A stretch of DNA of 64,000 nucleotides, taken from IMG/VR virus record IMGVR_UViG_3300018068_000002, positions 21,423-85,422 of that record. The stretch is one strand, 5' to 3'. Under the pieces are notes generated by a model. The model was not told the DNA's origin and ran no database searches. It saw only the letters and a list, made by a program, of their open reading frames with translations. Every line of letters begins with the position of its first letter. Position 1 is the stretch's first letter. Below are positions 48,392-62,919 of this stretch, piece after piece. Source of the stretch: a virus (lineage: Duplodnaviria > Caudoviricetes). The translations under genes were made by a program, and so were the position numbers.

Positions 48392-49171
48392 TTATACCTC
48401 CAATACAAACATTCTATTTTCTACAATTTGTTCTGCGTTTCTGTTTCCCCATTCAAAATTGTAACCAACAGGGGAGCAAATATAATGAGTATTTCCAATT
48501 ACTTTATCTTTTGTAAAATGAGTATGACCAAAGATTGAATAAGTTGGAGCTACTTCTTTAATGAATTTAGAAAGATCTTCTGAACCAAAGAAAGGATTTG
48601 TATGAATAAATTCCATGTTTTGTTCAAGAAGTTCATAATGCGGAACCATGTGAGTCATAATAATTTTATTTTTAACTTCACAAATATCAAGAAGTTGATT
48701 CTGGATTCTCATTTTTCTAATAGATTCTTGACAAAACCATTCAGCTCCACCATCATCAGGCCATACTATAAACCTATGGTCAGGCCAAATTGATCCGTTT
48801 CCATAGACTTTACCTTTTTTCAATTGTCCAATTGAACCAAATTTATGCCAGGTATAATTATACCAACCAGTGTCAGCGATAATCCCCCAATCTTCAAAGA
48901 TAATAGGAAATCCTGACATTTCATCACGATCTTCATGAAATCCTTTTTCTAAAGTATAATAATCATGATTACCATAAATTGCGTAAACTGATAGACCTTT
49001 ATTCCAAAGTCTATTCATAAATTCTTTAGTGGTTTTTGTTGAATTGGAAATATCACCAGCAATCATTAGAGTTGACAAATTATATTTTTTGTATGTGTTA
49101 ATAATTGCATTCTCAATATCATATTCTCTATTGTAATCAATGTGAAGATCACTAGTAAATCCAATTTTCAT
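48392..49171 (-). CDS. calcineurin-like metallophosphoesterase
   Basis: SDLH, AGD, GNHD, THMVP, FGHTH. Confidence 0.9.
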   Translation of the reverse strand: MKIGFTSDLHIDYNREYDIENAIINTYKKYNLSTLMIAGDISNSTKTTKEFMNRLWNKGLSVYAIYGNHDYYTLEKGFHEDRDEMSGFPIIFEDWGIIADTGWYNYTWHKFGSIGQLKKGKVYGNGSIWPDHRFIVWPDDGGAEWFCQESIRKMRIQNQLLDICEVKNKIIMTHMVPHYELLEQNMEFIHTNPFFGSEDLSKFIKEVAPTYSIFGHTHFTKDKVIGNTHYICSPVGYNFEWGNRNAEQIVENRMFVLEV

Positions 49172-49490
49172 AATATTTCTCCTTATCCAAAAAATAAATT
49201 ATGTAATGCTAAAGCAACAATAAATATTGAAATTGCTGGATATAGAAATGGAAATAGGACTCCTATTATTGCCAGTCCAATCATTGTTTTTATTTGCCAT
49301 GATAATTTTCTCATTTTATATATTCTTCCCAATCTCTTTCCATTCTTCTTTGCTTTTGTCTGTTATTTGTCTCCATGAAATGTTGTAATATCCATGCTTG
49401 TTCCCATTGTTCTTTTGTTAGTTTTAGTTTTATTTGTACATCACTAATAGATGGCACACCTATCGTAACATTTTTTACTTCTTCTTCCAT

Positions 49491-49703
49491 TTATCCTCCG
49501 AGCGGCTTGCCGCAATATATGCAGACTCTTAATTTTTCTGAACATTTGTGACAAAGAGTTTCTTGTGCCAAAGAGTAATTAGCAGAAACTTCTTTACAAC
49601 AACAACAAGTGAAAAATTTAATTCCTTTCTTTATGGAAGATCCATCTTTGTTAAAATAAAGATCTATACATTTCTGATCAATGTTAGATATAAATTTTTT
49701 CAC
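49491..49703 (-). CDS. small Cys-rich protein
   Basis: CCCC, CHKC, CIYC. Confidence 0.55.
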   Translation of the reverse strand: MKKFISNIDQKCIDLYFNKDGSSIKKGIKFFTCCCCKEVSANYSLAQETLCHKCSEKLRVCIYCGKPLGG

Positions 49704-49752
49704 TTTCTTTTACTCCTCTTAATTTACTTATACTTATATTTTACCACCCTTA

Positions 49753-49998
49753 TTAAGGGTTGTCAAGATCATGTTCTTTAATATATTCTTCAAGAATATC
49801 TCCTGTTATAGAACTAAAGTCTTCTTTCACTTTACTTTTAATTGGAGTAACTTTTGTTTGTGCAATACAAGAATATTCTTTTTTTTCTAAAGCTTCAACT
49901 CTATCCTTTAATTTAAATAACTCTTTTTCCAATTCTGAGTTTTCTACAATCAATCTTGCAAGTTGTTCAGCAACGACTGTTTCTAATCTTGTTAACAT
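49753..49998 (-). CDS. small coiled-coil protein
   Basis: 81 aa heptad pattern. Confidence 0.6.
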   Translation of the reverse strand: MLTRLETVVAEQLARLIVENSELEKELFKLKDRVEALEKKEYSCIAQTKVTPIKSKVKEDFSSITGDILEEYIKEHDLDNP

Positions 49999-50492
49999 TT
50001 ATCTACCTCATTTATTAATAAATTATTTTTTAACTTTATTTCAAATGCATGAACATGATGAGGCTGAAGACCTAAAGATGTTTTAGTTTTTAGTAAATGC
50101 TTCATTACTGGACCTATATCTCTATCATCATCTAAAATAACAAAATTTTCTACTTCTGGATGCCTACAAATCCAGTCTTCAATCTCATGTCCACGGCATC
50201 TTTCATTATTTGAATATACTCTAAAATCTGGAGTAATATCAAATATTTCATGACCAATTGACTCTAATGCTTTTCCTAGTGTTTTTAAATCTGAATCATA
50301 ATGTCTCCAACTTGAAGATACTACAATTTTACAGTTAAATTTTTCAAGAATTTGCTGCAAACTTTCTAATGCTGTTTTTGAAAAAGCTTCATTTCTAAAA
50401 CCTTTAATAAAAACAATATCATTTACATCTTTTCTTAACCAGCAATTATCATTATTTAAAACACCATCAACATCTAAAAATAATATATTCAT
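49992..50492 (-). CDS. HAD phosphatase, Swiss-army-knife RNA-repair-like (HAD_SAK_2)
   Basis: FLDVDGVLN, VSSSWR, RGHEIEDW, FVILDDD. Confidence 0.85.
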   Translation of the reverse strand: MNILFLDVDGVLNNDNCWLRKDVNDIVFIKGFRNEAFSKTALESLQQILEKFNCKIVVSSSWRHYDSDLKTLGKALESIGHEIFDITPDFRVYSNNERCRGHEIEDWICRHPEVENFVILDDDRDIGPVMKHLLKTKTSLGLQPHHVHAFEIKLKNNLLINEVDKC

Positions 50493-50677
50493 AAAACCTC
50501 TTTTATATTTTTACTCTATTATAATTATAACAAAATTAGAGATAATTGTCAATCTATTGACAACTATTAAAAGATATGATATTTATTCATTATTATATAC
50601 GCGCGCGAGAAGTCAAAATATTGACTTAAGTTTAAAGATATAGTATAATAATATTATAAAAACAAAAGGAGAAAAAG

Positions 50678-50989
50678 ATGTCAAATATATTTGATCGAGA
50701 TTTTGAAAGTGAAGTTAAGAAAATGAGAAAATTGAAAGGTAGATATAATTTACCGGAAGATTTTGACACATGGGATTCTTTTGAAAAAATTATGTTGATT
50801 TCTATTTTCCATTGTGAAATGCGAAAAATGCTTATTGTGAAGAATAGAATTTTCTTTACTAGCCTCGCATTATTCGGTTCAATTACATCCTTTATTTCTC
50901 TCCCTTGGGGAATTTGGAATGCTGTTCTTGCAACCTTTATGGGTTATTTAAATGAAAAAAAGATTGTTGACACCTTCGCAAAAATGTAG
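50678..50989 (+). CDS. small membrane protein
   Basis: Two hydrophobic segments. Confidence 0.6.
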   Translation: MSNIFDRDFESEVKKMRKLKGRYNLPEDFDTWDSFEKIMLISIFHCEMRKMLIVKNRIFFTSLALFGSITSFISLPWGIWNAVLATFMGYLNEKKIVDTFAKM

Positions 50990-51002
50990 TATAATTATAA
51001 AT

Positions 51003-51122
51003 ACGGTGGTAGTGTAATGGCAAGCACAGTTGACCAAAAAAATGTATCTGGACATAGGTGCATACAGCAACTTTAATTAATACAATCTGCAAGAGTAGGT
51101 CCAATTCCTACCCACCGTACCA
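51003..51122 (+). ncRNA. tRNA-like RNA whose anticodon loop is replaced by an approx. 50-nt stem-bulge module
   Basis: Acceptor ACGGTGG/CCACCGT+ACCA, D arm GTGT/GCAC, T arm GTAGG-TCCAATT-CCTAC; insert A7-TGTATCTG-GACA-TAGGTGCA-TACAGCAA. Confidence 0.75.
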
Positions 51123-51171
51123 GTGTTTGGTTTGTCAGTAGACTTCCGTTGTGTAAGTAACTGTTATTTAT

Positions 51172-51247
51172 CTACCTCTAGCACAACTGGAAGTGCAACA
51201 TTTTTCTAAAGTGTTGGTTACAGGTTCGAGCCCTGTGAGGTAGACCA
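51172..51247 (+). tRNA. tRNA-Arg(TCT)
   Basis: Cloverleaf, loop TTTCTAA, TTCGAGC, CCA. Confidence 0.9.
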
Positions 51248-51291
51248 ATTTTAACACTTTGGTAGTTTGAGTGTATAAAATTACCATACAT

Positions 51292-51369
51292 GGCCAATTC
51301 GTATAATGGTTAGTACAGCGAGCTTTGACCTCGCAAGCGGAATAGGTTCAATTCCTCCATTGGCTGCCA
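51292..51369 (+). tRNA. tRNA-Gln(TTG), bulged T stem
   Basis: Stem GCGAG/CTCGC, loop CTTTGAC, CCA; 3 extra nt in the T stem. Confidence 0.85.
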
Positions 51370-51527
51370 CAAGGAAGATTGCCCGCAAAGGCATAAAACT
51401 CTCGCCGCTAAAGGAGACAAATAACTGTGTAGGAAACTTGGCAGTTGGAAGATGATTAATAAATTGATATAAAAGGAGTAATTGATTATGAGGAATACAA
51501 TCTTGTAACACTTAGGAGGTGTTGCAT

Positions 51528-51704
51528 ATGTCGCTTGATAAAGCAATTAAATCTGGAAAAGAACATCGTAAACCGTATTATGGAGCACAAGCCTGTGATG
51601 CAAGTTGTAGGCCACACGGTGGTTGCACATATTGTAGAGAAGGTAGACTTCATAAATATAAAAAGAAAATGTTAAAAGAAAAAGATTATAAATCAGAAGT
51701 TTGA
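51528..51704 (+). CDS. small basic conserved phage protein
   Basis: ATG after AGGAGG; MSLDKAIKSGKEHRKPY...SCRPHGGCTYC. Confidence 0.7.
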   Translation: MSLDKAIKSGKEHRKPYYGAQACDASCRPHGGCTYCREGRLHKYKKKMLKEKDYKSEV

Positions 51705-52060
51705 CATTAGTTAAAAAGTATGATATACTATAAGAGTAAGAGTGGTAAAAGTGCTCCCTCTTATATTTAGAAACGCAGATTCCGCACATCTGGCAATTGT
51801 GAAAAACTTTATTCTCACATATAGCATATCAAAGCTCTTGACAAATGTGTGAGAATGTACTACACTAAGTATATGGTTATAAGTGTGGGCTATGAGCCTG
51901 ATCTTCGGGAAGTTTATCTGGTCAAAAAAGAAACTTCGACCCCTGCCGTGGTTGGTAAATGGCGTGTGGACGCGGATCATGCGTTCGAGACTACTGGGAA
52001 CAAAACTCTTAGTGAGACAAAATCCCTGCTGTTGGCAGATCAGTAAAACTGCCATCATAT

Positions 52061-52135
52061 TCCTTCGTGATGAAACTGATATCATGCTTGACTGTTAATC
52101 AAGTTTTCTAGGTTTAAATCCTAGCGTTGGAGCCA
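52061..52135 (+). tRNA. tRNA-Asn(GTT)
   Basis: CTTGA-CTGTTAA-TCAAG; two U-U acceptor mismatches; T loop TTTAAAT; CCA. Confidence 0.85.
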
Positions 52136-52204
52136 TGACGCTTTGGCGTTATTTTCGGGACAAATAAACAAAACCCGTATTTAATTTGAGATAAGAGAAA
52201 AATA

Positions 52205-52885
52205 ATGAATCAATATCGTAAATTTTTACTAATTGCGATGGGGTTCATGACTTTTTTTATTGTTAGCACAAAAAGTTTTGCACTAAATGGTGTAAGCATA
52301 ACAGAATTAATTGCGAAGGCTAAAAGTAAAATTTGGCAAGAATACCCAGGTATAGAAGAAATATGGCCTCCGTGTTTAAACGAACATTTTACTATTCAAG
52401 AAACAGTGATTCTAATAATTAAAAAAACAATTGCAACAACGGGAACAACAACAACAATAGCGACAACAACAATAACAGAAAAAGAAACTCAATCAACTGG
52501 AGATTATTGGATAGATGAAATTGTGAGATTAACAAATGAAGCAAGAATTAATGAAAGATTAAGTGAATTAAAACTTAGTTCTTCTCTTAATCTAGCCGCA
52601 TCAATTCGTGTAAATGAATTACCAAATAGTCCAGATATTCATATAAGACCAAATGGAGAACACTTCTATACAGTCTTTAATGAAGTTGGTCTTTCTCCAT
52701 CGAGAGGTGGAGAAAATTATAGTATTGCTACTGCAAACTGTTATTCTCCAGAACAAATTGTAAATGCTTGGTTGGCTTCACCAACTCATAAAAAAAATAT
52801 TATGAATGGTGAATATACTAAAATAGGTATTGGACATTGTATAAGTGGTGATGATGAATATTTTGAACAACTTTTTACAAATTAA
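52205..52885 (+). CDS. exported CAP (SCP-like) domain protein
   Basis: N-terminal signal/TM, Thr-rich linker, LTNEAR...HIRPNG...GEN...VNAWLASPTHKKNI..EYTKIGIG. Confidence 0.85.
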   Translation: MNQYRKFLLIAMGFMTFFIVSTKSFALNGVSITELIAKAKSKIWQEYPGIEEIWPPCLNEHFTIQETVILIIKKTIATTGTTTTIATTTITEKETQSTGDYWIDEIVRLTNEARINERLSELKLSSSLNLAASIRVNELPNSPDIHIRPNGEHFYTVFNEVGLSPSRGGENYSIATANCYSPEQIVNAWLASPTHKKNIMNGEYTKIGIGHCISGDDEYFEQLFTN

Positions 52886-52924
52886 ATATTTGACTTCAAT
52901 TAAAAATTATGTTATAATTATATT

Positions 52925-53150
52925 ATAAGGTTAAGAGAAATCTTGTGTCGTTTTGCAGTATCGGAGAAACTGCACGTCTAATCAAATAGCTTTTGGCTCG
53001 TTCGTCGTTAAGACGAACCTTGGATAGAGTTGCCAGCGTGAAGGTACAATAGATCGCTGGACGAAATCCCACACTATAATCTTGAGTTATACCTAGGAAG
53101 ATGCTCATAACAAGGTGTGGAACTGTGCACAGTCTAGTAAACCAAAAGAT
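52925..53150 (+). ncRNA. unnamed structured RNA candidate
   Basis: After a consensus promoter, no plus-strand ORF; stems TGCAGT/ACTGCA, GTTCGTC/GACGAAC, CCAGCG/CGCTGG, CCACAC/GTGTGG. Confidence 0.5.
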
Positions 53151-53221
53151 ATTTGATTAGGCGTAAAAATCTAAATTCTCTCCAAAAACAGCAGTAAAAG
53201 TGATTTTTCTGGTGAAAATAT

Positions 53222-53297
53222 GGCACTATCTTCTAATGGATTCGGAAAGCGGCCCTTCAAGTCGTTAATCAGAGTTTAATTCTCTGTAGTGTCACCA
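53222..53297 (+). tRNA. tRNA-Glu(TTC)
   Basis: Loop CCTTCAA, T loop TTTAATT, CCA. Confidence 0.85.
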
Positions 53298-53298
53298 T

Positions 53299-53628
53299 TG
53301 ACAAGCTACCGTCATAAAACAAGCCGTGCTTAGGCCACGTTAAACTCCTATGACCTAGTTATGTCATTAAACCAACTTCCAAGGAATGTACACCTAACTG
53401 TCAAAAGCTAAAAGTACCGAACAGTCAATCGTCAGGAACTTGGTAATTGCGCCATGAAGCAATGGGTCGTTATACACCTTTAATAAAGTATAACGAGGAA
53501 TTCATTCCGATAAAATGGACGGCTTCCAACACTCCGTAAGTTGAACCCAAACCGGAAAGGTAGATATGTTGGCTGATACTTGGCTAAGAGCTAAGCGCGC
53601 ACTCGTAAGTGCAATGATAAACTTGTCA
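53299..53628 (+). ncRNA. unnamed approx. 330-nt structured RNA candidate
   Basis: Ends pair (TGACAAG/CTTGTCA); internal stems CGTG/CACG, ATGAC/GTCAT, GTTATAC/GTATAAC, GCAC/GTGC; no ORF. Confidence 0.55.
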
Positions 53629-53696
53629 TTTAAAATAAGTGAGTCGCCCGACCAGCAGGCGATATAGCGGATATTGCTTCCGATGCTGGTTTATAT

Positions 53697-53772
53697 GGTA
53701 GTGTACTCAAACGGTCAAGAGGAACGTCTGATACGCGTTTATTAATAGGTCCGACTCCTATCACTACTACCA
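53697..53772 (+). tRNA. tRNA-Ile(GAT)
   Basis: AACGT-CTGATAC-GCGTT; T loop TCCGACT; CCA. Confidence 0.8.
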
Positions 53773-53898
53773 CAGTTCTCTTCATAGTCGTCGTTAGTCG
53801 ATAAAGACGAAAAACTCGACCACCAAGTTCTTCGGAACTCAAACATTTGACAACACTCAAAAACTATGTTATAATTATATTATAGCAATTGGAAATGC

Positions 53899-54465
53899 AC
53901 CTTGACATTACTAATAAATAATCTTAACCCAGTGAAGAACGTCTAATCAACGTGCTGGGAGTTTAGGTATATTGAGTTATCTATAAATGGGATACTTTTT
54001 ATAGGTAGGACTTTTTAATAGTAGTAATACTGTTAATCGAGAGGGAAACCCTCAAGGATAACTAGACGTGCTTATTGTATTGGAAGAATAAGACACACAA
54101 CTTTTCGGCGTCGTAATAGGCAGCCCTGCGGGAAAGAAGCCAGCAAGTCATTGATGGGAGTCAATGAACCGCTACTGGTAACTCCAAACAAGACGTTTCG
54201 TTGTGAAACACAGAAATGTGATATAAGAAAAGTAGGTGGTTCGAGTAGCTCAAGACGAATTCTGGTGATAAAGAGATTTACAACTCAATTCTGAATGATG
54301 GGTGAAAGTTGCAGGAAAAAAATCCTGTGCGTGCTAGGTCGAAAGATTGGGCAGGAAGTTAGAGGTCGCTCCTCGAAGCTCAGACCTGTCTACACGGTGG
54401 TCGAATATTCCCTAATATGATTGGTAAGGCGAAAGTCTAAAATTATTTGTTAGTAATGTTAAGGT
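53899..54465 (+). ncRNA. ROOL-like large ornate RNA
   Basis: 22-bp terminal helix 53901-53922/54442-54463; blocks AGTGAAGA, TGGGATACT, GAGTAGCT, GTGAAAGTT, GAGGTCGCTCCTC match ROOL segments as recalled; approx. 570 nt; promoter at 53848; tRNA context. Confidence 0.75.
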
Positions 54466-54472
54466 TCAATTA

Positions 54473-54528
54473 AAGATACTCACAGCAACTTCATTTTCAC
54501 CAAGGATATGAAAAACCCAAAGTATCTT
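54473..54528 (+). ncRNA. ACAGCAA stem-bulge RNA, copy b
   Basis: AAGATACT-CACAGCAA-payload-AGTATCTT. Confidence 0.7.
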
Positions 54529-54534
54529 GTATAC

Positions 54535-54609
54535 GGTTTCGTAGTTCAATGGACAGAATAGTGGATTGTCACTTCACAGACGCCAGTTCAATTCTGGTCG
54601 ATACCGCCA
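54535..54609 (+). tRNA. tRNA-Asp(GTC)
   Basis: GTGGA-TTGTCAC-TTCAC, TTCAATT, CCA. Confidence 0.88.
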
Positions 54610-54611
54610 TA

Positions 54612-54860
54612 GGCAAGTACGCCTTTAAAGTGCCGATACCGCAAATCGTTAAAGGATCAGGCAACTCGATGGGAAGTTGTGACTCGCCAATCCGTCCACG
54701 ATTGGTCGGAGTGTCTTCTCCGAGATCAAAGAACAGTACAATAATGTGCTATAGAGGTTGCGGCCGCACCTCAAATTATCCCGCTATCTTTATTGGGAAA
54801 AGGAAAGACGGATTTTAGCGATTAGTTATACGTAGTGCACGTAAAGGCGCAACTATCGCA
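54612..54860 (+). ncRNA. unnamed structured RNA candidate
   Basis: Consecutive hairpins CAACT/AGTTG, CCAATC/GATTGG, TCGGAG/CTCCGA, GAGGT/ACCTC, GCGAT-AGTT/AACT-ATCGC. Confidence 0.5.
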
Positions 54861-54869
54861 ACCAAATTA

Positions 54870-54921
54870 AAGATACTCACAGCAGCCTTAAAAACAAATT
54901 GTTAATGATAAAATGTATCTT
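54870..54921 (+). ncRNA. ACAGCAA stem-bulge RNA, copy c
   Basis: AAGATAC-TCACAGCAG-payload-GTATCTT. Confidence 0.7.
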
Positions 54922-54941
54922 GTTTAAAAAAATAATTATTA

Positions 54942-55000
54942 TAGGCACTTACAGCAATTTTAAAACTAGTAAAATCGTATTTACACTTTTAAAGTGTCTA
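54942..55000 (+). ncRNA. ACAGCAA stem-bulge RNA, copy d
   Basis: TAGGCACT-TACAGCAA-payload-AGTGTCTA. Confidence 0.7.
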
Positions 55001-55038
55001 GTTAAATACATTGGCAGATGTATAAACTGCCACCATAT

Positions 55039-55111
55039 CGCAGGGAGAATTGGCATTCAAGTGAGGCTCATAACCTTACCTCCACAGGATCGTAACCTGT
55101 CCCTGCCCCCA
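55039..55111 (+). tRNA. tRNA-Met(CAT), initiator-like, shortened D loop
   Basis: C1 mismatch, GTGAGG-CTCATAA-CCTTAC, T loop ATCGTAA, CCA. Confidence 0.8.
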
Positions 55112-55293
55112 GTAGAGAGTGATTTATATCACTCTCTTTTTCTTGATTTTAGTCTGTACTTATGCTATAATTATAATAATAATTATATTATTACTCTAGT
55201 TAAAAAGAAAAAAATTGAATGGCAGTAACGTTGACTAAAATCAATACGTATGATATAATATTATTATAATAAAAATGAAAGAGGAGACTACTT

Positions 55294-56262
55294 ATGGATA
55301 CCAAAGCTAGAGTTAGAGCAAGAGAATCTCTCGGAGTACTTGAACAGGCACTTGCCGAAATTTTTGCAGAAAAGAAAGCTGATGAAATCGCAGGTCAAGT
55401 CTTAAATTCTGTTAAAACAAAAATTGATTTGTTTATTAAAGAGAATTACGGGGATCTTCCTCGTAAAACTACTATTCGTTATAATACAAAAGATATTAAG
55501 TTTGATGAGGTTGTTCATGAAAAATTTGAAACAATTTTGTCTTTCGTTCACCAAAATGAACCTGTTTTTATCACTGGACCTGCTGGTTCTGGTAAAAACG
55601 TAATTTGTAAACAAATTTCAAAAGCTCTTGATCTAGAGTTCTATTTTGCCAACGCTGTTACTCAGGAATATAAAATTACTGGATTTACAGATGCTATGGG
55701 ACGTTATCAAGAATCTCAATTTTATAAAGCCTTTAAAGATGGCGGGTTATTCATGCTGGACGAAGTTGATGCTTCTATTCCAGAAGTTTTGATTATTCTT
55801 AATGCCGCTATTGCTAATAGATACTTTGACTTTCCTGCGCCTATTGGAAAAATTGAAGCACACGAAAACTTTCGTATCATTGCCGCAGGTAACACTTTCG
55901 GTACTGGTGCTACATATCAATATGTTGGACGTAATCAGCTTGATGCCGCATCTCTTGACCGTTTTGCAGTAATCGAAGTTAATTACTCTGAAAATATTGA
56001 AAAAAGTGTTTGCCAGAATAATACTGAACTTATCACTTTCTGCCGCGACTTCAGAGAAGCTGCACGCAAAGCAGGAACTCAGACTATTGTTAGCTACCGT
56101 GCTATGGGTCGTATTGCTAGAATGGAAGATAATCTTGACATGGAAACTCTTCTTAAATCTAGCTTGCTTAAAAACCTAGAAAGAGACGATATCAAAATGA
56201 TTATCGGTGGTTTGAAGCATCAGAATAAATATAGAAGTGCTTTGGAGAGGATGGTAAAATAA
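55294..56262 (+). CDS. MoxR/CobS-like AAA+ ATPase
   Basis: GPAGSGKN, MLDEVD, IAAGNT, LDAASLDRF. Confidence 0.88.
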   Translation: MDTKARVRARESLGVLEQALAEIFAEKKADEIAGQVLNSVKTKIDLFIKENYGDLPRKTTIRYNTKDIKFDEVVHEKFETILSFVHQNEPVFITGPAGSGKNVICKQISKALDLEFYFANAVTQEYKITGFTDAMGRYQESQFYKAFKDGGLFMLDEVDASIPEVLIILNAAIANRYFDFPAPIGKIEAHENFRIIAAGNTFGTGATYQYVGRNQLDAASLDRFAVIEVNYSENIEKSVCQNNTELITFCRDFREAARKAGTQTIVSYRAMGRIARMEDNLDMETLLKSSLLKNLERDDIKMIIGGLKHQNKYRSALERMVK

Positions 56263-57093
56263 ATGAATATCCAGGGAGAAGTTAAAACTTCTGATGGTAG
56301 AATTAAATATGAAATCTTTGAAAGTACAAGCGAACTTGCTGTATCCAACAAAGAGAGAAAATTTAGACATGGTGACGATACTATGCGTAGAAGCATTGGT
56401 GGAGATTGGCATGGTGTTAAATCATATGATGAAGCTGAAGAACTTCTCTCTAATGGTTGGACATATAAAACCGATGAATTGCGTAAAGTAATTAATGGTG
56501 TTGAAAAGAAAATTTATGAAAAAAGAACTTCTTTTAAAAACAATGTAGTAGGATACGTTCCTATTGTTCCATTGGCTATTCAAGGAGTTCCAAACTCTAT
56601 GATTGATGTTCATTATAAACCAATGAAATCGAAAATTGTTGATATTTATTACGATATTACTGTAAACTGCGGCACTTCTCCAGAAGAAATTTTGAAGCAA
56701 GGGATTGCAATTACAGAAGCAATTATTGATCTTGAAAGACAAGGATATCGTGTAAGACTTAGTGGGGTACAAAGCTATTCTAGCAGCAAAACTGCTGATT
56801 TGCTAGTTATTCGTATTAAAAATGAATCTCAACCTCTTGATCTAAAACGTATTATGTTTCCAATGATGCATCCTGCTATGTTTAGAGTTATTGGATTTGC
56901 ATGGTATGAAAGATGTCCATTTTCTACTGAGCGTAGTGGCTACGGTCATAATATGAGTAGTGAATGGGAATATGAACAAATTAAAGAAATGATGCAAAAA
57001 GCGTTTGGAACAAGTATTATCTATCTAGGAGCTGCTAAAATGGGTAATGATCCAAGAGCATATATTGAAGAAAAATTGAAAGGATTAAAATAA
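56263..57093 (+). CDS. vWA-like (CobT-like) partner protein
   Basis: Abuts the ATPase; DITVNCGTS, AIIDLERQGYRVRL, MHPAMFR. Confidence 0.7.
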   Translation: MNIQGEVKTSDGRIKYEIFESTSELAVSNKERKFRHGDDTMRRSIGGDWHGVKSYDEAEELLSNGWTYKTDELRKVINGVEKKIYEKRTSFKNNVVGYVPIVPLAIQGVPNSMIDVHYKPMKSKIVDIYYDITVNCGTSPEEILKQGIAITEAIIDLERQGYRVRLSGVQSYSSSKTADLLVIRIKNESQPLDLKRIMFPMMHPAMFRVIGFAWYERCPFSTERSGYGHNMSSEWEYEQIKEMMQKAFGTSIIYLGAAKMGNDPRAYIEEKLKGLK

Positions 57094-57185
57094 GAGGCGA
57101 AAGTCCTCTTATTTTTTTCAAATTGTTGACTCTAGTTAAAATTTATGATATAATTATATTATAATGATGAAAGTAGAGAAAAGAT

Positions 57186-57380
57186 ATGAGAGACCCCAGA
57201 AGAATCACAGGAACTCTTAGAATTTTTGAAAGACTCTGGAATAGACATCCAGATCTTAGATTCCAACAAATTGTTGATTTAATCAATACTGAAATTATTT
57301 TTAGTGGAAAAGATCCTCACTATATTGAAGAAGAAAAATTAAATGAAATCATAATTAAATTGATTAATAAGACCTACTAA
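57186..57380 (+). CDS. small conserved phage protein
   Basis: MRDPRRI...W..HPDLRFQQ. Confidence 0.7.
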   Translation: MRDPRRITGTLRIFERLWNRHPDLRFQQIVDLINTEIIFSGKDPHYIEEEKLNEIIIKLINKTY

Positions 57381-57406
57381 TTGAGTTTTTTTAACTCAAT
57401 TTTTAT

Positions 57407-57472
57407 GGCTCATACTCAAGGCGAGGGCAATGTTTCATACACATTTGCAGAAATGGTGGCATTTTGCCACCA
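57407..57472 (+). pseudogene. truncated tRNA(CAT) remnant
   Basis: D-like CTC/GAG and AATGT-TTCATAC-ACATT arms, but no T arm; ends in the hairpin TGGTGGCA-TTT-TGCCACCA. Confidence 0.5.
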
Positions 57473-57525
57473 AAATCTTGTGATTTATTCTAAATAAATC
57501 TACATCTATTATAGGAGGTGATTTT

Positions 57526-58206
57526 ATGGGATTAATTTATAAAATTACAAATATAATAAATGGTAAAATGTATATTGGACAAACATCTTTTTCTTTAGAG
57601 CAAAGATGGATTAAACATTGTTATGATGCAAAAAAAGAAACAATGGAACAAAGACCTTTATACCAAGCAATGAATAAGTATGGAAGTGAAAATTTTCAAA
57701 TTGAAAAAATAGAAGATTGTGAAGATGATGATTTAGGTTGCCGAGAAATTTATTGGATTAATAAACTTGATACTTATAAAAATGGATATAATGCTACTTA
57801 TGGTGGCGAAGGTAAAAAACTTTTTAATACTGAAGAAATAATTAAAACATATGAAATGGGATTTTCATATGAGAGTACAGCAAAAGTAGTTGGATGTTGT
57901 CCATCTACTGTTCAAAAAACAATTAAAAGTAAAGGATATTCAAGAAAACCTTTTGAATATTTGTTAAAAAAACAAAAAGCAATAAATCAATATTCATTAA
58001 ATAATGAATTTATTCAAACATTTGATTCTGCTGCGGAAGCAGCAAGATACCTTCTCAATCAAGGTATTATAAAAAACTATAGTGGTGGAATAAGAAGTCA
58101 TATTGCTGACGCTGCAAAAGGAATAAAAAGAAAAACTGCTTATGGATATAAGTGGAAATTTGTAGAAAATTTGCCAGAAGACCAAGGAGGTAGCAATCTT
58201 TCATAA
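57526..58206 (+). CDS. free-standing GIY-YIG homing endonuclease (Seg-like)
   Basis: GLIYKITN...MYIGQT, GYN, NUMOD1-like C-terminus. Confidence 0.9.
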   Translation: MGLIYKITNIINGKMYIGQTSFSLEQRWIKHCYDAKKETMEQRPLYQAMNKYGSENFQIEKIEDCEDDDLGCREIYWINKLDTYKNGYNATYGGEGKKLFNTEEIIKTYEMGFSYESTAKVVGCCPSTVQKTIKSKGYSRKPFEYLLKKQKAINQYSLNNEFIQTFDSAAEAARYLLNQGIIKNYSGGIRSHIADAAKGIKRKTAYGYKWKFVENLPEDQGGSNLS

Positions 58207-58244
58207 GGATTCGCGATTAGGTTCAAATCCTAATTTTGGCACCA
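58173..58244 (+). tRNA. tRNA(CAT), Met or Ile2; overlaps the endonuclease 3' end
   Basis: GCCAGAA/TTTTGGC, AATCT-TTCATAA-GGATT, TTAGG-TTCAAAT-CCTAA, CCA. Confidence 0.75.
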
Positions 58245-58299
58245 TAGGCACATACAGCAAATCAATTGGATTTGAAATCCCGCTAAAAAAAGGTGTCTA
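58245..58299 (+). ncRNA. ACAGCAA stem-bulge RNA, copy e (leader of the DUF2828 gene)
   Basis: TAGGCAC-ATACAGCAA-...GGA-TTTGAAA-TCC...-A7-G-GTGTCTA, then GGAG RBS. Confidence 0.75.
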
Positions 58300-58317
58300 G
58301 AAGGAGATAAAGGAAAA

Positions 58318-59841
58318 ATGTTTATAACAGAATTAAAGAAAGAAGTAGCTCGCTCAACTGTACAACTCACTGAAAATGGTGCTTTAGGATTTTCACAAAC
58401 TGGTAAAGCTCTTTTAGATATGAATTTCAGAGTTTCAAGCTATCGTAATTTAGATGAAGATAAAATCTTCTCTGATTTTATGAAAGCATTTAATGAAAAT
58501 GAAATTATGACTATGCGTTGGCTTTTTTATGTCCGCGATATTCGTGGAGGTCTTGGTGAACGCAGACTTTTTAGAGTAATTACTGAAAAGATGACTTTAG
58601 AAAATTCAGAAATGATGGAAAAAGTCCTTGGACTCATTAGTGAATTTGGACGTTGGGATGATGTTCTTGTTTTCATGGGAACTCCTATTGAAAACAAAGT
58701 TAAAATTTTAATTGCAAAACAATTAAAAGAAGATATTGAGAATATGAAAAAGGGGGAATCTATTTCTTTGCTTGCAAAGTGGATGCCTTCTATTAACGGT
58801 TCTAATAAAGAACGTAAAATTACAGCAACAAAACTTGCTAAATCATTTGGAATGGATCAAAGAACTTATCGTAAGACTCTTTCAGAGTTGCGCGCTTACC
58901 TTGATATTGTAGAACGTAAAATGACTACAAAAAGATGGGGAGACATTGAATATAGTGGAGTTCCTTCTCGCGCGAACTTGCTTTATAATAAAGCATTTTT
59001 ACGTAATGATGAAGAACGTCGTCGTGAATTTTTAGGAAAAGTTGAAAAAGGAGAGAAAGAAATTCACTCTGCAACTAACTTTCCTCATGATATTGTGCAT
59101 AAGTATATGAGCTATAAAGCAAAAGATCAAACTCTTGAAGAATTGTGGAAAGCTCTACCTAACTATGGTGAAGATATGGTTAATACCCTTGTCGTTGCTG
59201 ATGGTTCAGGTTCAATGACTTGTACAACAGTAGGAAATACTAAGATTCTACCATTGTCAGTTGCTAATGCTTTAGCAATTTATTTTGCAGAACATTGTGT
59301 AGGTGGATTCAACAATACCTATATTACATTTAGTGAAACTCCTCAAATTGTTTCTTTGGGAAAAGGAACTCTTTATAGTAAACTTAAAATTGCACAAAGC
59401 CATAATGAAGTAGCTAATACTAATATTGAAGCTGTGTTTAATCTTATTCTAAGTACTGCAAAAAGTGCGGGAATGAAGCAGGAAGAACTTCCTGCTACAA
59501 TTCTCATTATTTCAGATATGGAATTTGATAATTGTACTAATTCAACAGGATATTATGGAAGCAGAACTGGATTCAAAACTCCTAATAAAACTCTTTTTGC
59601 AGAACTCGCAAACCGTTATGCAAATGCTGAATATAAACTTCCAAAACTAGCTTTTTGGAATATTATGTCTCGTACAATGACTATTCCTGTAATTGAAAAT
59701 GAAGCAGGAGTAACTCTAATTTCAGGTTTTAGCCCTACTTCAATTAATATGGTTCTTGCAGGAGAAGCAGATCCCTATAAAGCACTTGAAAAAGTACTTA
59801 TGAATGAACGTTATGATGTAGTTGAAGAAGCTATTTCTTGA
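58318..59841 (+). CDS. DUF2828 family protein (Ro60/TROVE-like helical domain + vWA)
   Basis: TENGA, RDIRGGLGERRLFR, GRWDD, LLAKWMPS, VADGSGSM, ISDMEFD. Confidence 0.85.
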   Translation: MFITELKKEVARSTVQLTENGALGFSQTGKALLDMNFRVSSYRNLDEDKIFSDFMKAFNENEIMTMRWLFYVRDIRGGLGERRLFRVITEKMTLENSEMMEKVLGLISEFGRWDDVLVFMGTPIENKVKILIAKQLKEDIENMKKGESISLLAKWMPSINGSNKERKITATKLAKSFGMDQRTYRKTLSELRAYLDIVERKMTTKRWGDIEYSGVPSRANLLYNKAFLRNDEERRREFLGKVEKGEKEIHSATNFPHDIVHKYMSYKAKDQTLEELWKALPNYGEDMVNTLVVADGSGSMTCTTVGNTKILPLSVANALAIYFAEHCVGGFNNTYITFSETPQIVSLGKGTLYSKLKIAQSHNEVANTNIEAVFNLILSTAKSAGMKQEELPATILIISDMEFDNCTNSTGYYGSRTGFKTPNKTLFAELANRYANAEYKLPKLAFWNIMSRTMTIPVIENEAGVTLISGFSPTSINMVLAGEADPYKALEKVLMNERYDVVEEAIS

Positions 59842-59907
59842 CAAATTTCAATTAATATAATATAATTATATTATAAGGTTGGGAGAAGAACCTCCCAACC
59901 ACTATAT

Positions 59908-59983
59908 ACAGGGCGAAGTATAATGATTTTGTATGCAACACTTGGGCTGTTGTGGAGCGGTTTGATTCCGACGCCTTGTACCA
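59908..59983 (+). tRNA. tRNA-Pro(TGG), weak T stem
   Basis: CAACA-CTTGGGC-TGTTG, T loop TTTGATT, CCA. Confidence 0.8.
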
Positions 59984-59991
59984 GGAGAATT

Positions 59992-60354
59992 ATGAAATGT
60001 TTTTATTGTGAGTCTGAATTTGAAATTAAAAAAACTCAAGGCGGGCAAAATAGACAATTTTGTTATTTTTGTTTACCAGAAAATTCAGATAAAGAAGAAA
60101 GAGAAAAATTAAAAACAAAATTATTATATCAAAAAGCAAATAAAATAAAATTTGAAAGAGGTTGTGATATTTGTGGATACAATAAATGTGCATCTGCTTT
60201 AGAATGGCATCATGAAGGGAATGATAAAGAAAATAATCCTGCAAATTTTATGAGAAAAGGAACTATAAAACAATATCAAGAATATGAAAAAGAAATAAAA
60301 AAATGTATTCTATTATGTGCTAATTGTCATAGAGAAATTCATTCAAAAGAATAA
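59992..60354 (+). CDS. HNH endonuclease
   Basis: ATG after GGAG right after tRNA-Pro; CDICG...ALEWHH...LLCANCHREIH. Confidence 0.85.
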   Translation: MKCFYCESEFEIKKTQGGQNRQFCYFCLPENSDKEEREKLKTKLLYQKANKIKFERGCDICGYNKCASALEWHHEGNDKENNPANFMRKGTIKQYQEYEKEIKKCILLCANCHREIHSKE

Positions 60355-60402
60355 TCAATCATATAAAATTCTGTCATTCCGACCAATGAAAAGGAGAAAG
60401 TT

Positions 60403-60618
60403 ATGTCAAAAAAATACATTGTATCAGAACAAAGACTTCGAGACTTAATTGAAGCAGAAGAAAAACTTTGCGCACTTAATGCAGGTGGAGTAGATAATTG
60501 GTCATGGTATGGAGAATCTATGCGTGATTATGTAATAGCGCAAGGACTTGAAGATTCAGATGATCCATTTGAAGAAATAGTTGATAAGGAAATTCTTAAT
60601 TATCAGGAAAAATACTAA
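60403..60618 (+). CDS. small conserved phage protein
   Basis: LCALNAGGVDNWSWY. Confidence 0.75.
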   Translation: MSKKYIVSEQRLRDLIEAEEKLCALNAGGVDNWSWYGESMRDYVIAQGLEDSDDPFEEIVDKEILNYQEKY

Positions 60619-60621
60619 TTT

Positions 60622-60890
60622 GCCGACGAGGGGAAATAGTCGTTAAATAATTCTCAGCTCGGTGGCTAAACCGCTAATTTCTTCTTCGAGAGTTCGAGTC
60701 TCTTCACTTGTCAGTGCTGACTGGAAGGTTGAAGTATTAGTGTAGAACAAGTTTCCCCCTACTAATTTATGTCGTATAAATGGAAGTAGGCAGTACAAAG
60801 CGAGAATTAACGACATAGCTGAGTACACGTTGCGAACGGGAATGCGCGACAACTAATATATTGGAAGTTGGCTGGCCTGCCTTTTCCTTA
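60622..60890 (+). ncRNA. unnamed pseudoknotted RNA candidate
   Basis: GGGGAAA/TTTCCCC, GTCGTTAA..TAATTCTC/GAGAATTAACGAC, AGGCAG/CTGCCT, T-loop-like GAGAG-TTCGAGT-CTCT. Confidence 0.55.
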
Positions 60891-61000
60891 TTATAAAAAA
60901 TACCACTGTTATGTAATTTATAGGGAAGTTTTCTACATAAAAGTAGAGACCACCTAAAAATTATATTATGGTGGTATTTTGTATATGGAGGATGGTAATT

Positions 61001-61150
61001 ATGCCTTATAAAAGCGAAAAACAACGTAAGTTCTTCCATTCAAAAGGTGCAGCAAAAGCTGGTATTACAAAAAAAGATATTAAAAAATGGGACAAAGAAT
61101 CAAAAGGTCGTAAAATTCCAAATAAAGTAAAACGCAAAAAGGGGAAATAA
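61001..61150 (+). CDS. small Lys-rich basic protein (49 aa)
   Basis: ATG after GGAGG; MPYKSEKQRKFFH. Confidence 0.7.
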   Translation: MPYKSEKQRKFFHSKGAAKAGITKKDIKKWDKESKGRKIPNKVKRKKGK

Positions 61151-61152
61151 AA

Positions 61153-61251
61153 ATGGCAAAAGACAAAGATAAGGGAAAGAAAGAAGAAAAGAAACAACCA
61201 AAAGACAATAAGAAAGCTGCTCCAAAGAAGGGTGGAAAGGGAAGTAAGTAA
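61153..61251 (+). CDS. Lys-rich micro-protein (32 aa)
   Basis: MAKDKDKGKKEEKKQPKDNKKAAPKKGGKGSK, read manually. Confidence 0.55.
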   Translation: MAKDKDKGKKEEKKQPKDNKKAAPKKGGKGSK

Positions 61252-61372
61252 TATGACTTGCGCGACCGGTGGCGGAAAAAGAAAGGTAAAGGTAAAAAAA
61301 AAGGTTAATTCAAGAGGGAGATAGTCTCCCTCTTGACTTATTATCGAAACTATGATATAATATTAATATGAG

Positions 61373-61675
61373 GTGGGATATGTGGAACACGTAGATACAA
61401 TCTTAGATTTTTTAGATGAATATGGATATAATATGAGTTATGCAAATGATGGTGAAAAATCTTTTGCTAATGAAGCTTACGAGGTAATGAGAGAAAAAGC
61501 AAAATCTCAAAATGCTTTTATGTATTTTAATGGGAATCTACACAATTGGGAAAAATTTCTTTTTAGAAGAAATAATATTTTGTACTCTTGGTCTTGCGTT
61601 TATGCTCCTCGTCCATACTATATTTTTGAAATAGTTGGAGAAACTATTTATAAAGTATTTAATTATGAGGGATGA
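61373..61675 (+). CDS. hypothetical protein
   Basis: Own promoter; start uncertain. Confidence 0.5.
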   Translation: MGYVEHVDTILDFLDEYGYNMSYANDGEKSFANEAYEVMREKAKSQNAFMYFNGNLHNWEKFLFRRNNILYSWSCVYAPRPYYIFEIVGETIYKVFNYEG

Positions 61676-61752
61676 TTTAATCTAGGGGACTCCTGGAACC
61701 TCTCTGCAAAAGAGGCAATTAGAAGTTTGACTCTTCCATCTCTCTCCAATAC

Positions 61753-61836
61753 GCCGGACGAATCTTAAACTTGGGAGGCCTAGGGCAAAGCTCCAAACTT
61801 TGTGATAAAGGAGATCGTTACTTCCGTTCGGTGCCA
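61753..61836 (+). tRNA. tRNA-Trp(CCA)-like with an enlarged D region
   Basis: GCCGGAC/GTTCGGT, CAAAG-CTCCAAA-CTTTG, T loop ATCGTTA, GCCA end. Confidence 0.6.
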
Positions 61837-61853
61837 AAAGAAAGGGGGATTAT

Positions 61854-62138
61854 ATGAATAAATTAAAGTATATTCGAGCAAAAGAAATTGAAGAATTAAT
61901 TAATGATTTGGAAAAAGAAATTGACGGTTTAAAAAAACACGCTTTATTCTCTGTTGATTGCGATAGAATTACTATTTTTATGAAAAAAACATTTTTAGAC
62001 GATTACGGTAATTATAATAAAACAGAAGTAATAGAAACAGAATTAGACTCAGGAATACTTTATAATTATTATAGAGAAGCAATTGGGGCTAAAGAAAAGA
62101 AAATTAAAACTCTTGAAGAGGAGTTTGATAATCTATGA
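61854..62138 (+). CDS. hypothetical protein
   Basis: 94 aa with RBS. Confidence 0.6.
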   Translation: MNKLKYIRAKEIEELINDLEKEIDGLKKHALFSVDCDRITIFMKKTFLDDYGNYNKTEVIETELDSGILYNYYREAIGAKEKKIKTLEEEFDNL

Positions 62139-62326
62139 CAAATTCTATGAAACACAAAATTAATAATATGACTTATGAAGAAATGCTATATCTTTGGCGT
62201 TTCTCTCCATCTGGATATGAGTTCTTCCAAGGAGAAATTGGAGAATATTTTTCAAAAGTAATGGCTGAAAAAAAGAAATTAGTTGATCATGCTCAAATTT
62301 CAAAAATAATTGGTTGGAAAGAATAG
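62135..62326 (+). CDS. small conserved phage protein
   Basis: MTYEEMLYLWRFSPSG..FFQGEIGEYF. Confidence 0.7.
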   Translation: MTNSMKHKINNMTYEEMLYLWRFSPSGYEFFQGEIGEYFSKVMAEKKKLVDHAQISKIIGWKE

Positions 62327-62381
62327 TTGACTTCAGTTAAAAATTATGTTATAATTATATTATAGAAAGTGAGAAAAATAA

Positions 62382-62899: not shown

Positions 62900-62919
62900 G
62901 GTGCTTTGCGCCCTCATAT

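What the first reader, a model, noticed from the sequence alone, without database searches (positions are those of the whole stretch)
51003..51122. tRNA whose anticodon loop is replaced by a permuted stem-bulge module (candidate Y-RNA/tRNA intermediate)
Seen: intact acceptor stem with CCA, D arm and T arm, but in place of a 7-nt loop there is A7-TGTATCTG-GACA-TAGGTGCA-TACAGCAA. These are the same two strands and bulge as free copies b-e, in reversed order and closed by a 4-nt loop. Known: bacterial YrlA Y RNAs are permuted tRNA mimics with the Ro60-binding stem at the anticodon-arm position. Inference: an unpermuted, possibly aminoacylatable tRNA carrying a docking site for the DUF2828 protein.
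Basis: partly seen in the sequence, partly recalled or inferred. Interest (0 to 1): 0.85.

Follow-up and report, generated by a model that had tools for sequence, protein, structure and literature searches.

The report
tRNA-shaped partner RNA of Ro60-like protein
This phage gene makes a complete tRNA shape whose anticodon loop is replaced by a conserved hairpin-plus-ACAGCAA "handle"; the same handle sits just upstream of a Ro60-like ring-protein gene in about 200 handle copies from roughly 160 phage and gut-bacterial loci, so it is most likely an undescribed, inside-out relative of Y RNAs and not a decoding tRNA.

Summary
Window 51003-51122 (+) scores as tRNA (Rfam 38.9 bits, cut-off 29), with a 7-bp acceptor stem, D arm, T arm, A73 and an encoded CCA. 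Its anticodon stem encloses a 52-nt insert. The insert holds a 9-bp hairpin, then ACAGCAA. These are the same two strands and motif as free copies b-e, in permuted order.

A model of this handle finds 132 copies in 81 sources (80 related phage loci plus the window) and 77 in 80 bacterial-assembly loci. Of these, 208 of 209 lie on the strand of the DUF2828 gene, upstream of it in the loci I checked (viral set: median 450 nt, all but two within 1.5 kb). All 7 stem pairs covary.

The DUF2828 protein folds like Ro60 (TROVE ring plus vWA); Ro60 structures take almost all of the top 14 ranks.

I tested the intron reading. It works formally for a sister class, where the insert sits at nt 28/29 and the anticodon arm is perfect. 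It fails for the window's class: U33 cannot be restored in 32 of 53, the window RNA included.

Best reading (about 0.55): an unspliced tRNA-shaped partner RNA of a Ro60-like protein. Splicing or processing is not excluded (about 0.2). Binding is inferred, not shown. This scan has noted the same family before on other DNA, with the same reading. I found no paper describing it.

The parts
50967..50995 (+). Consensus sigma-70-type promoter (TTGACA, 17 nt, TATAAT). The predicted start is at or 1 nt before base 1 of the RNA.
   Evidence: 12 of 12 hexamer matches; one of a family of repeated promoters.
51003..51122 (+). Handle-bearing tRNA-shaped RNA, 120 nt: acceptor stem, D arm, anticodon stem enclosing the insert, 4-nt variable loop, T arm (C55 in place of U55), A73, CCA.
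   Evidence: Rfam tRNA 38.9 bits against a gathering score of 29. The cloverleaf is conserved with compensatory changes in 16 relatives.
51029..51033 (+). Anticodon-stem 5' strand, GUUGA.
   Evidence: cmscan alignment; in the family alignment 4 of the 5 pairs show changes on both sides.
51034..51041 (+). 5' flank of the handle: CC followed by an A-rich run.
   Evidence: An A-rich run precedes strand 2 in all copies of the window and in the seed alignment.
51042..51063 (+). Handle hairpin: strand 2 (AUGUAUCUG), GACA loop, strand 1 (UAGGUGCAU).
   Evidence: Fold. Model R1 scores 51036-51080 at 44.9 bits, E 9e-9. Stem covariation in the family.
51064..51070 (+). ACAGCAA motif, invariant in the 14 seed copies.
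   Evidence: Invariant columns in A2; recurs in copies b-e.
51071..51085 (+). U/A-rich tail (CUUUAAUUAA), then UACAA, the remnant of tRNA positions 34-38.
   Evidence: Segment table of the class; a purine at '37' in 48 of 53.
51086..51090 (+). Anticodon-stem 3' strand, UCUGC.
54473..54528 (+). Free handle copy b (AAGAUACU, C, ACAGCAA, hairpin payload, A-rich run, AGUAUCUU). It starts about 16 nt after the ROOL RNA and ends 6 nt before tRNA-Asp.
54870..54921 (+). Free handle copy c (ACAGCAG variant).
54942..55000 (+). Free handle copy d (UAGGCACUU / AAGUGUCUA), upstream of tRNA-Met.
58245..58299 (+). Free handle copy e (UAGGCAC / GUGUCUA) in the leader of the DUF2828 gene. Strand 2 ends 1 nt before the GAAGGAGA ribosome-binding site.
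58318..59841 (+). Ro60-like protein gene (DUF2828 plus a DUF7788/vWA domain with a DGSGS MIDAS motif), 507 aa.
   Evidence: Pfam; MIDAS residues invariant; the best Foldseek matches are Ro60/TROVE structures.

Best explanation
The gene makes a non-decoding, tRNA-shaped small RNA that serves as a partner RNA of the phage's Ro60-like ring protein (DUF2828/vWA, 58318-59841). It is transcribed from its own consensus promoter, starting at or next to base 1. It folds into a tRNA L-shape with an encoded CCA end. Its anticodon stem continues into an A-rich/U-rich region, a 9-bp hairpin and the unpaired motif ACAGCAA. This bulged-helix 'handle' is the proposed docking site for the Ro60-like protein, as the bulged stem of Y RNAs is for Ro60. 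The tRNA body would then be the second module of the particle, offering a tRNA shape to tRNA-binding enzymes or nucleases, as Y RNAs tether Ro60 to PNPase. The free copies b-e are the same handle with its ends on the other side. Copy e lies against the ribosome-binding site of the protein's own gene and could give feedback control. Shown here: RNA architecture, conservation, covariation, genomic linkage, and the protein fold. Inferred: binding, absence of splicing, and the role of the tRNA body.
For: (1) tRNA scaffold: Rfam 38.9 bits. In 16 relatives the acceptor, D, anticodon and T stems are kept, with compensatory changes at 16 of 20 pairs. (2) Handle: model R1 finds 132 copies in 1.1 Mb of viral sequence (80 related loci plus the window) and 77 in 0.73 Mb of bacterial-assembly loci. 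208 of 209 lie on the strand of the DUF2828 gene. In the viral set the median distance to the gene start is 450 nt and all but two lie within 1.5 kb. 120 of the 132 lie inside tRNA scaffolds. (3) Stem covariation: 96.8% of cells are paired against 64.5% when shuffled, all 7 pairs change on both sides, and the score is 0.85 against at most 0.16 for slid partners. (4) Protein: almost all of the top 14 Foldseek ranks are Ro60/TROVE structures aligned over 520-570 columns (phage phiLo Ro60, Deinococcus Rsr, Xenopus and human Ro60; E 4e-8 to 5e-4). The rest are mostly vWA domains. (5) Against decoding: excision would leave CC+UACAA, that is C33. In the window's class U33 is obtainable from either side in only 21 of 53 (the background U fraction is 0.34), against 239 of 256 ordinary tRNAs of the same loci. 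The window RNA also has C55 where all 15 relatives have U. One pair of RNAs differs in the parsed segments only inside the 'anticodon' (AGG against AGA). (6) Redundancy: 16 of 59 sister-class instances have an ordinary tRNA with the same anticodon in the same locus. (7) Known precedent: Ro60 genes with Y RNAs close by on the same strand, some in phages (PMC4201824, PMC12135203).
Against: No binding or expression data exist. Pfam TROVE does not match the protein, and phmmer against the sequences of solved structures finds no Ro60. The structure model is mediocre (pLDDT 67, TM 0.3-0.5). The loci were chosen through the DUF2828 gene, so the linkage shows position and strand but not exclusivity. 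In the window the RNA lies 7.2 kb from the gene, the largest distance seen. The sister class keeps perfect anticodon arms (37 unique RNAs), and positions 37-38 stay tRNA-like in the window's class; both also fit a spliced tRNA. Among 16 relatives, discriminator U73 goes with glycine-type triplets in 7 of 8, while A73 goes with other triplets in 6 of 8. That hints at a retained tRNA identity.
Confidence: 0.55

Rival explanations
1. The handle is a new kind of short tRNA intron or, more generally, a cut-and-rejoin signal. An endonuclease and a ligase would remove the hairpin form from tRNAs to give decoding tRNAs (here tRNA-Val, UAC) and would process the free form as a leader-trailer stem, much as the archaeal bulge-helix-bulge motif works in introns, split tRNAs and rRNA stems.
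For: In the sister class, deleting the insert at nt 28/29 gives a perfect 5-bp stem and a 7-nt loop with U33 and R37 in 37 unique RNAs, with covarying stems. ARAGORN's intron mode such genes. UACAA with A73 would fit valine in the window, and U73 goes with glycine triplets in relatives. The window encodes no other tRNA-Val. The two topologies of one motif parallel archaeal BHB usage. 'Enigmatic' tRNA introns have been reported in Lak megaphages (PMC6784885).
Against: For the window's class a canonical loop cannot be restored in 32 of 53, and the window RNA would carry C33. The anticodon-like triplet drifts among close relatives. The distance from ACAGCAA to the junction varies from 4 to more than 15 nt, so there is no ruler. 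By eye there are no two 3-nt bulges set 4 bp apart. The 85-kb record holds no RtcB, and no ligase or endonuclease lies next to the gene in locus L017. Ordinary tRNAs of the same anticodon are often present nearby. An intact anticodon arm in the sister class does not need splicing to exist.
Confidence: 0.2
2. The handle is a processing or stability signal of the tRNA operons, for example a site for a host or phage RNase, or a protective structure. It would be unrelated to the DUF2828 protein, whose nearness would reflect only a shared tRNA island.
For: Free copies abut tRNA ends: copy e starts right after a CCA, copy b ends 6 nt before tRNA-Asp, and in L006 a handle (ACAGCAA at 12517) starts right after tRNA-Gly. 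The handles lie in tRNA arrays.
Against: 208 of 209 hairpin-form copies lie on the DUF2828 gene's strand, most within 1.5 kb upstream, and none lies elsewhere in the 10-20 kb loci, although these hold many other tRNAs. A processing site would not need to sit inside the anticodon arm of a tRNA body.
Confidence: 0.1
3. It is a dead tRNA gene, disrupted by the insertion of a repeat element.
For: C55, a U.U mismatch in the anticodon stem and no usable anticodon loop.
Against: It has its own perfect promoter. The architecture is conserved with compensatory changes across phages whose DUF2828 proteins share only about 50% identity.
Confidence: 0.03

Closest known systems
YrlA-type Y RNAs with Ro60/Rsr in bacteria and mycobacteriophages (Rfam RF02553; Chen et al. 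2014, PMC4201824)
   Same: A small RNA encoded near, and on the strand of, a ring-shaped Ro60-type protein gene. It is built of a protein-binding bulged stem plus a tRNA-like domain with D and T arms.
   Different: YrlA is a permuted mimic: the order is T, acceptor-like stem-loop, D, and the RNA ends lie in the Ro-binding stem. Here the tRNA is unpermuted, with free acceptor ends and CCA, and the handle is a closed hairpin in the anticodon arm. The motif is ACAGCAA, not GNCGAA(N)G. The Rfam YrlA model does not match. The protein is DUF2828 and does not match Pfam TROVE by sequence.
Thermus phage phiLo Ro60 with Yrl1/Yrl2 (PMC12135203; PDB 9KOP, 9L5Y)
   Same: A phage-encoded Ro60 with partner RNAs encoded just upstream. 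The RNAs have a stem-bulge-stem design with a short conserved motif in the bulge. These are the best structural matches to the window's protein.
   Different: Yrl1 and Yrl2 carry a CGAA motif and are not described as full tRNA cloverleaves. Sequence identity to the window protein is about 15-16%.
Archaeal bulge-helix-bulge tRNA introns and the leader-trailer stems of split or permuted tRNAs (PMC4090602)
   Same: One short RNA motif occurs both as a closed insert at varied positions of the anticodon arm and as an open stem formed by flanking sequences.
   Different: No BHB geometry, no splicing endonuclease or ligase found, and a canonical anticodon loop cannot be restored in most RNAs of the window's class.
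'Enigmatic' tRNA introns of Lak megaphages (Devoto et al. 2019, PMC6784885)
   Same: Phage tRNA genes with unexplained inserts of tens of nucleotides.
   Different: I did not compare the sequences. No link to ACAGCAA or DUF2828 is reported there.

Membership tests
tRNA (Rfam RF00005) | Covariance-model score at or above the gathering score, with the cloverleaf stems present | tested here: met
   38.9 bits against 29; all four stems aligned.
tRNA (functional decoder) | 7-nt anticodon loop with U33 and a purine at 37 | tested here: not met
   The loop is 52 nt. The best excision gives CC+UACAA, that is C33.
tRNA (functional decoder) | T loop with U54-U55-C56 | tested here: not met
   UCCAAUU, that is C55; all 15 relatives have U55.
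YrlA / bacterial Y RNA (RF02553) | Match to the Rfam YrlA model | tested here: not met
   No match at E up to 10 on 50950-51170, nor at E up to 5 on 50000-64000.
YrlA / bacterial Y RNA | GNCGAA(N)G motif near the 5' end (PMC4201824) | tested here: not met
   The conserved motif is ACAGCAA.
YrlA / bacterial Y RNA | Encoded within about 4 kb of a Ro60 ortholog, on the same strand | tested here: inconclusive
   Same strand, but 7.2 kb away in the window. The median is 450 nt in 131 relatives. The protein is Ro60-like by fold only.
YrlA / bacterial Y RNA | Permuted tRNA-like domain (T, acceptor-like stem-loop, D) with the RNA ends in the Ro-binding stem | tested here: not met
   The order is acceptor, D, handle, T, acceptor, with the ends at the acceptor stem.
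YrlA / bacterial Y RNA | Bound by the Ro60 protein | not testable with these tools
   Needs EMSA or co-purification.
Ro60 / TROVE proteins (for 58318-59841) | Match to Pfam TROVE PF05731 | tested here: not met
   No match at E up to 1 in the record. Pfam gives DUF2828 plus DUF7788.
Ro60 / TROVE proteins (for 58318-59841) | Helical-repeat ring followed by a vWA domain with a MIDAS motif | tested here: met
   Foldseek: Ro60/TROVE chains take almost all of the top 14 ranks over both domains, probability 1.00, E 4e-8 to 5e-4. DGSGS is invariant. The model quality is moderate (pLDDT 67).
Group I tRNA introns | Match to the group I intron models; length of about 200 nt or more | tested here: not met
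   The insert is 52 nt; no Rfam intron match.
Archaeal-type BHB introns | Two 3-nt bulges separated by a 4-bp helix at the junctions, and a canonical tRNA restored by excision | tested here: not met
   By inspection there is no such geometry. U33 is not restorable in 32 of 53 RNAs of the class.

The most novel reading that the evidence does not exclude
The stem-plus-ACAGCAA handle is a general cut-and-rejoin signal of a phage RNA-processing system, a bacterial-virus counterpart of the archaeal bulge-helix-bulge motif, with the Ro60-like ring as its platform. Handle-bearing tRNAs, at least the class with the insert at nt 28/29, would then be true protein-spliced tRNA introns, and the free copies would be excised or circularised. 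That would be the first such system in the bacterial world.
Probability: 0.15. Interest if true: 0.92.

Novelty: new variant of a known kind. Interest (0 to 1): 0.7.

Why it matters
Ro60/Y-RNA particles are known from animals, some bacteria and a few phages, and the purpose of the tRNA-like part of bacterial Y RNAs is still unclear. Three things differ in the family described here. The protein family (DUF2828) has so far been of unknown function. The handle motif is different. The tRNA part is a complete, unpermuted cloverleaf with a CCA end and, in a sister class, an intact anticodon arm. The family is frequent in large phages of gut and rumen Clostridia. If the RNA binds the protein, the finding assigns a function to DUF2828. 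It would also offer a natural series of designs (handle in the loop, in the stem, or at the ends) for asking what the tRNA module of such particles does, for instance as a decoy or tether for tRNA-directed nucleases or repair enzymes. For annotation, it explains a recurrent class of 'tRNAs with introns' in phage genomes.

Tried and rejected
- **Discriminator test.** I asked whether the discriminator base fits the anticodon-like triplet across the class: 46% match against 43% when permuted. My calibration on ordinary tRNAs failed to parse, so this says nothing either way.
- **Second helix.** I looked for a helix between the A-rich 5' flank and the U-rich tail. The longest helix averaged 4.28 nt against 4.26 nt after shuffling, so there is no support beyond base composition.
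- **BLAST.** BLAST of the region against deposited phages gave only a tRNA-Arg match to Lactococcus phage KSY1.
- **Sequence search of solved structures.** phmmer of the protein against PDB sequences found nothing meaningful.
- **Own record.** RtcB and Pfam TROVE are both absent from the record, but it is only 38% complete.
- **Neighbouring ORFs.** Pfam on ten neighbouring ORFs was uninformative.
- **Look-ups that failed.** The exact-protein look-up of the L017 gene was not on record.
- **tRNA fragment at 58198-58244.** A search for its 5' half by pattern was uninformative.
- **Literature.** Searches for DUF2828, phage tRNA introns, ROOL/GOLLD and tRNA mimics found no description of this handle.
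- **Not sent.** No complex-prediction job, because that tool does not take RNA.

Full report
**1. What is at 51003-51122**

- Rfam's tRNA model matches 51003-51119 at 38.9 bits against a gathering score of 29.
- The alignment shows a 7-bp acceptor stem (ACGGUGG/CCACCGU), a D arm, a 5-bp anticodon stem (GUUGA/UCUGC, with one U.U mismatch), a 4-nt variable loop and a T arm. A 51-nt insertion sits in the anticodon loop.
- A73 and CCA are encoded.
- Default ARAGORN does not call the gene; its intron mode does.
- The T loop reads UCCAAUU, so position 55 is C. All 15 aligned relatives have U there.
- A perfect sigma-70-type promoter (TTGACA, 17 nt, TATAAT; 50967-50995) puts the transcription start at or 1 nt before base 1.
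- tRNA-Arg and tRNA-Gln follow on the same strand.

**2. The insert and the free copies**

Inside the insert, AUGUAUCUG-GACA-UAGGUGCAU forms a 9-bp hairpin (51042-51063). ACAGCAA follows directly (51064-51070).

The four free copies named by the first stage are real: 54473-54528, 54870-54921, 54942-55000 and 58245-58299. Their order is strand 1 (UAGGCAC or AAGAUAC), 1-2 nt, ACAGCA(A/G), a variable payload, an A-rich run, then strand 2 (GUGUCUA or GUAUCUU). In the tRNA the order is A-rich run, strand 2, loop, strand 1, ACAGCAA. That is the same bulged helix closed at the other end, so 'permuted' is the right word. UAGGYRCNUACAGCAA occurs three times in the window against 0.28 expected.

**3. 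Relatives**

I fetched 10 and then 80 viral loci through the DUF2828 protein of 58318-59841; the proteins share about 50-55% identity.
- These loci hold many free handles with fully complementary but different stems.
- They also hold tRNA genes with the hairpin form inside the anticodon arm, usually 2-4 in tandem just upstream of the DUF2828 gene.
- L003 9699-9812 has the same acceptor stem as the window RNA. Rfam's tRNA model scores the three L003 genes at 44.6-46.9 bits.

I built a covariance model (R1) from 14 ungapped hairpin-form handles.
- It finds 132 copies in 1.1 Mb of sequence (81 sources: 80 related loci plus the window). All are on the gene's strand. The median distance to the gene start is 450 nt, and all but two lie within 1.5 kb. 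The window's 7,238 nt is the largest distance. 120 of the 132 lie inside tRNA scaffolds.
- In an independent set of 80 loci from bacterial assemblies it finds 77 copies, 76 of them on the gene's strand and, by their coordinates, upstream of the gene. These assemblies are mostly Lachnospiraceae, Oscillospiraceae and other gut Clostridia, including isolates.
- On the 132-copy alignment, 96.8% of cells pair against 64.5% after shuffling. All 7 pairs show changes on both sides. The covariation score is 0.85 against at most 0.16 for slid partners.
- The window's 85-kb record has exactly one strong hairpin-form copy.
- In 16 RNAs of the window's type, the four tRNA stems are kept, with compensatory changes at 16 of 20 pairs. 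The anticodon stem encloses the whole insert.

**4. The protein**
- Pfam gives DUF2828 plus DUF7788.
- The alignment keeps a DGSGS MIDAS motif.
- Pfam TROVE does not match, and phmmer against the sequences of solved structures finds no Ro60.
- An AlphaFold model from a 7-sequence alignment is of moderate quality (pLDDT 67, pTM 0.58).
- Its best Foldseek matches, over 520-570 columns, are Ro60/TROVE structures. They take almost all of the top 14 ranks: phage phiLo Ro60 (9KOP, 9L5Y), Deinococcus Rsr (2NVO), Xenopus Ro60 (1YVP, 1YVR, 2I91) and human Ro60. E-values run from 4e-8 to 5e-4 and TM from 0.32 to 0.51. The remaining matches are mostly vWA domains.

So the protein is Ro60-like in fold, not by sequence family.

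**5. Intron or retained handle?**

I took the intron reading seriously, because two classes appear.

In class A the insert sits between nt 28 and 29 of the anticodon stem, with the 5' junction at CG|UAA. Deleting it gives a perfect 5-bp stem and a 7-nt loop with U33 and R37 in 37 unique RNAs. Of these, 22 read CUGUUAA (Asn), and the stems covary. That arm is intact with or without splicing, so this class does not decide the matter.

Class B is the window's class. A full 5-bp stem encloses the insert, and the 5 nt before the 3' strand look like positions 34-38 (UACAA here; GCCAA and UCCAA elsewhere). In this class excision cannot restore a canonical loop:
- U at position 33 is available from the 5' side in 11 of 53, from the 3' side in 14 of 53, and from either side in 21 of 53. 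The background U fraction is 0.34.
- By comparison, 239 of 256 ordinary tRNAs of the same loci have U33.
- The window RNA would carry C33.
- The triplet drifts among close relatives: L083 and L087 differ in the parsed segments only by AGG against AGA, and one group varies between GCC, GGC and GGCC.
- The distance from ACAGCAA to the junction varies widely.
- 16 of 59 class A instances have an ordinary tRNA with the same anticodon in the same locus.
- I found no RtcB in the record, which is only 38% complete. No ligase or nuclease lies beside the gene in L017.

Points that keep splicing alive:
- Purine 37 is kept in 48 of 53.
- In 16 relatives U73 goes with glycine-type triplets in 7 of 8, and A73 goes with other triplets in 6 of 8.
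- The window has no other tRNA-Val.

**6. Reading**

The best-supported explanation is an unspliced, tRNA-shaped partner RNA of a Ro60-like protein. The bulged handle docks the protein, and the tRNA body is the second module.

This matches the logic of Ro60/Y-RNA particles. Those RNAs are encoded near the Ro60 gene on the same strand, bind it through a bulged stem with a short motif, and in YrlA carry a tRNA-like domain (PMC4201824). Phage examples include phiLo (PMC12135203).

It is not a member of the YrlA family. The Rfam model does not match, the motif differs, and the tRNA is not permuted.

Free copy e ends 1 nt before the ribosome-binding site of the protein's own gene. That suggests feedback control, but this is inference.

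What the tRNA body is for is unknown. The neighbourhood holds a HAD_SAK_2 RNA-repair-type domain, a metallophosphatase, a MoxR-type AAA ATPase and DUF7192. These point loosely towards RNA repair or conflict functions.

**7. Earlier notes of this scan**

At least eight earlier reports on other genomes describe the same handle on tRNA-shaped RNAs beside DUF2828 and reach the same reading.

The literature searches found no description of this handle or of a DUF2828 function.

Noticed in passing
window 53904-54457 (+): A full-length ROOL RNA (Rfam RF03087, 363 bits) lies in the same tRNA island. Free handle copy b starts about 16 nt after its end.
   Followed up: no
window 58172-58244 (+): A tRNA-like stretch that neither ARAGORN nor Rfam calls. 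It has acceptor UGCCAGA/UUUUGGCA, a reduced D arm, anticodon arm AAUCU-UUCAUAA-GGAUU (CAU), a T arm and CCA. It overlaps the 3' end of the GIY-YIG gene and is followed directly by handle copy e.
   Followed up: partly
window 57526-58206 (+): A GIY-YIG/NUMOD1 homing-endonuclease gene sits between DUF7192 and the DUF2828 gene, where relatives carry their handle-bearing tRNAs. It may have displaced or broken them.
   Followed up: no
window 55294-57093 (+): A MoxR-type AAA_5 ATPase (55294-56262) and a DUF7192 protein (56263-57093) lie just upstream of the vWA-bearing Ro60-like gene, the usual MoxR-vWA pairing. They are not adjacent in locus L017.
   Followed up: partly
window 48392-50492 (-): A HAD_SAK_2 domain protein ('Swiss Army Knife' RNA repair; 49992-50492) and a calcineurin-like phosphoesterase (48392-49171) are encoded divergently just upstream of the RNA's promoter.
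   Followed up: no
window 54610-54640 (+): Right after the CCA of tRNA-Asp comes UAGGCAAGUACGCC..., which resembles the start of a handle (UAGGCAC..ACAGC) but lacks ACAGCAA. It may be a decayed copy.
   Followed up: no
L003 9820-9938 (+): A free handle (AAAGACAC / GUGUCUU, with UCAGCAA) whose payload looks like a tRNA body with D and T loops, but with a 4-bp stem and tetraloop in place of the anticodon arm. Rfam tRNA does not score it at E up to 1.
   Followed up: partly
window 50500-64000 (+): At least nine near-identical consensus promoters (TTGACW, 17 nt, TATAAT, with conserved flanks) punctuate the tRNA/small-RNA island.
   Followed up: no
L151 4902-4946 (-): The only handle hit on the strand opposite the DUF2828 match (48.8 bits). 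The protein match there is partial (residues 131-506), in a Prevotella-labelled assembly.
   Followed up: no
L013-L023, L027, L038: about 1.9-5.5 kb downstream of the DUF2828 gene start (in L038 about 4.4 kb upstream): Ordinary tRNA-Asn(GUU) genes coexist in the same loci with the handle-bearing Asn-type RNAs found upstream of the gene.
   Followed up: partly
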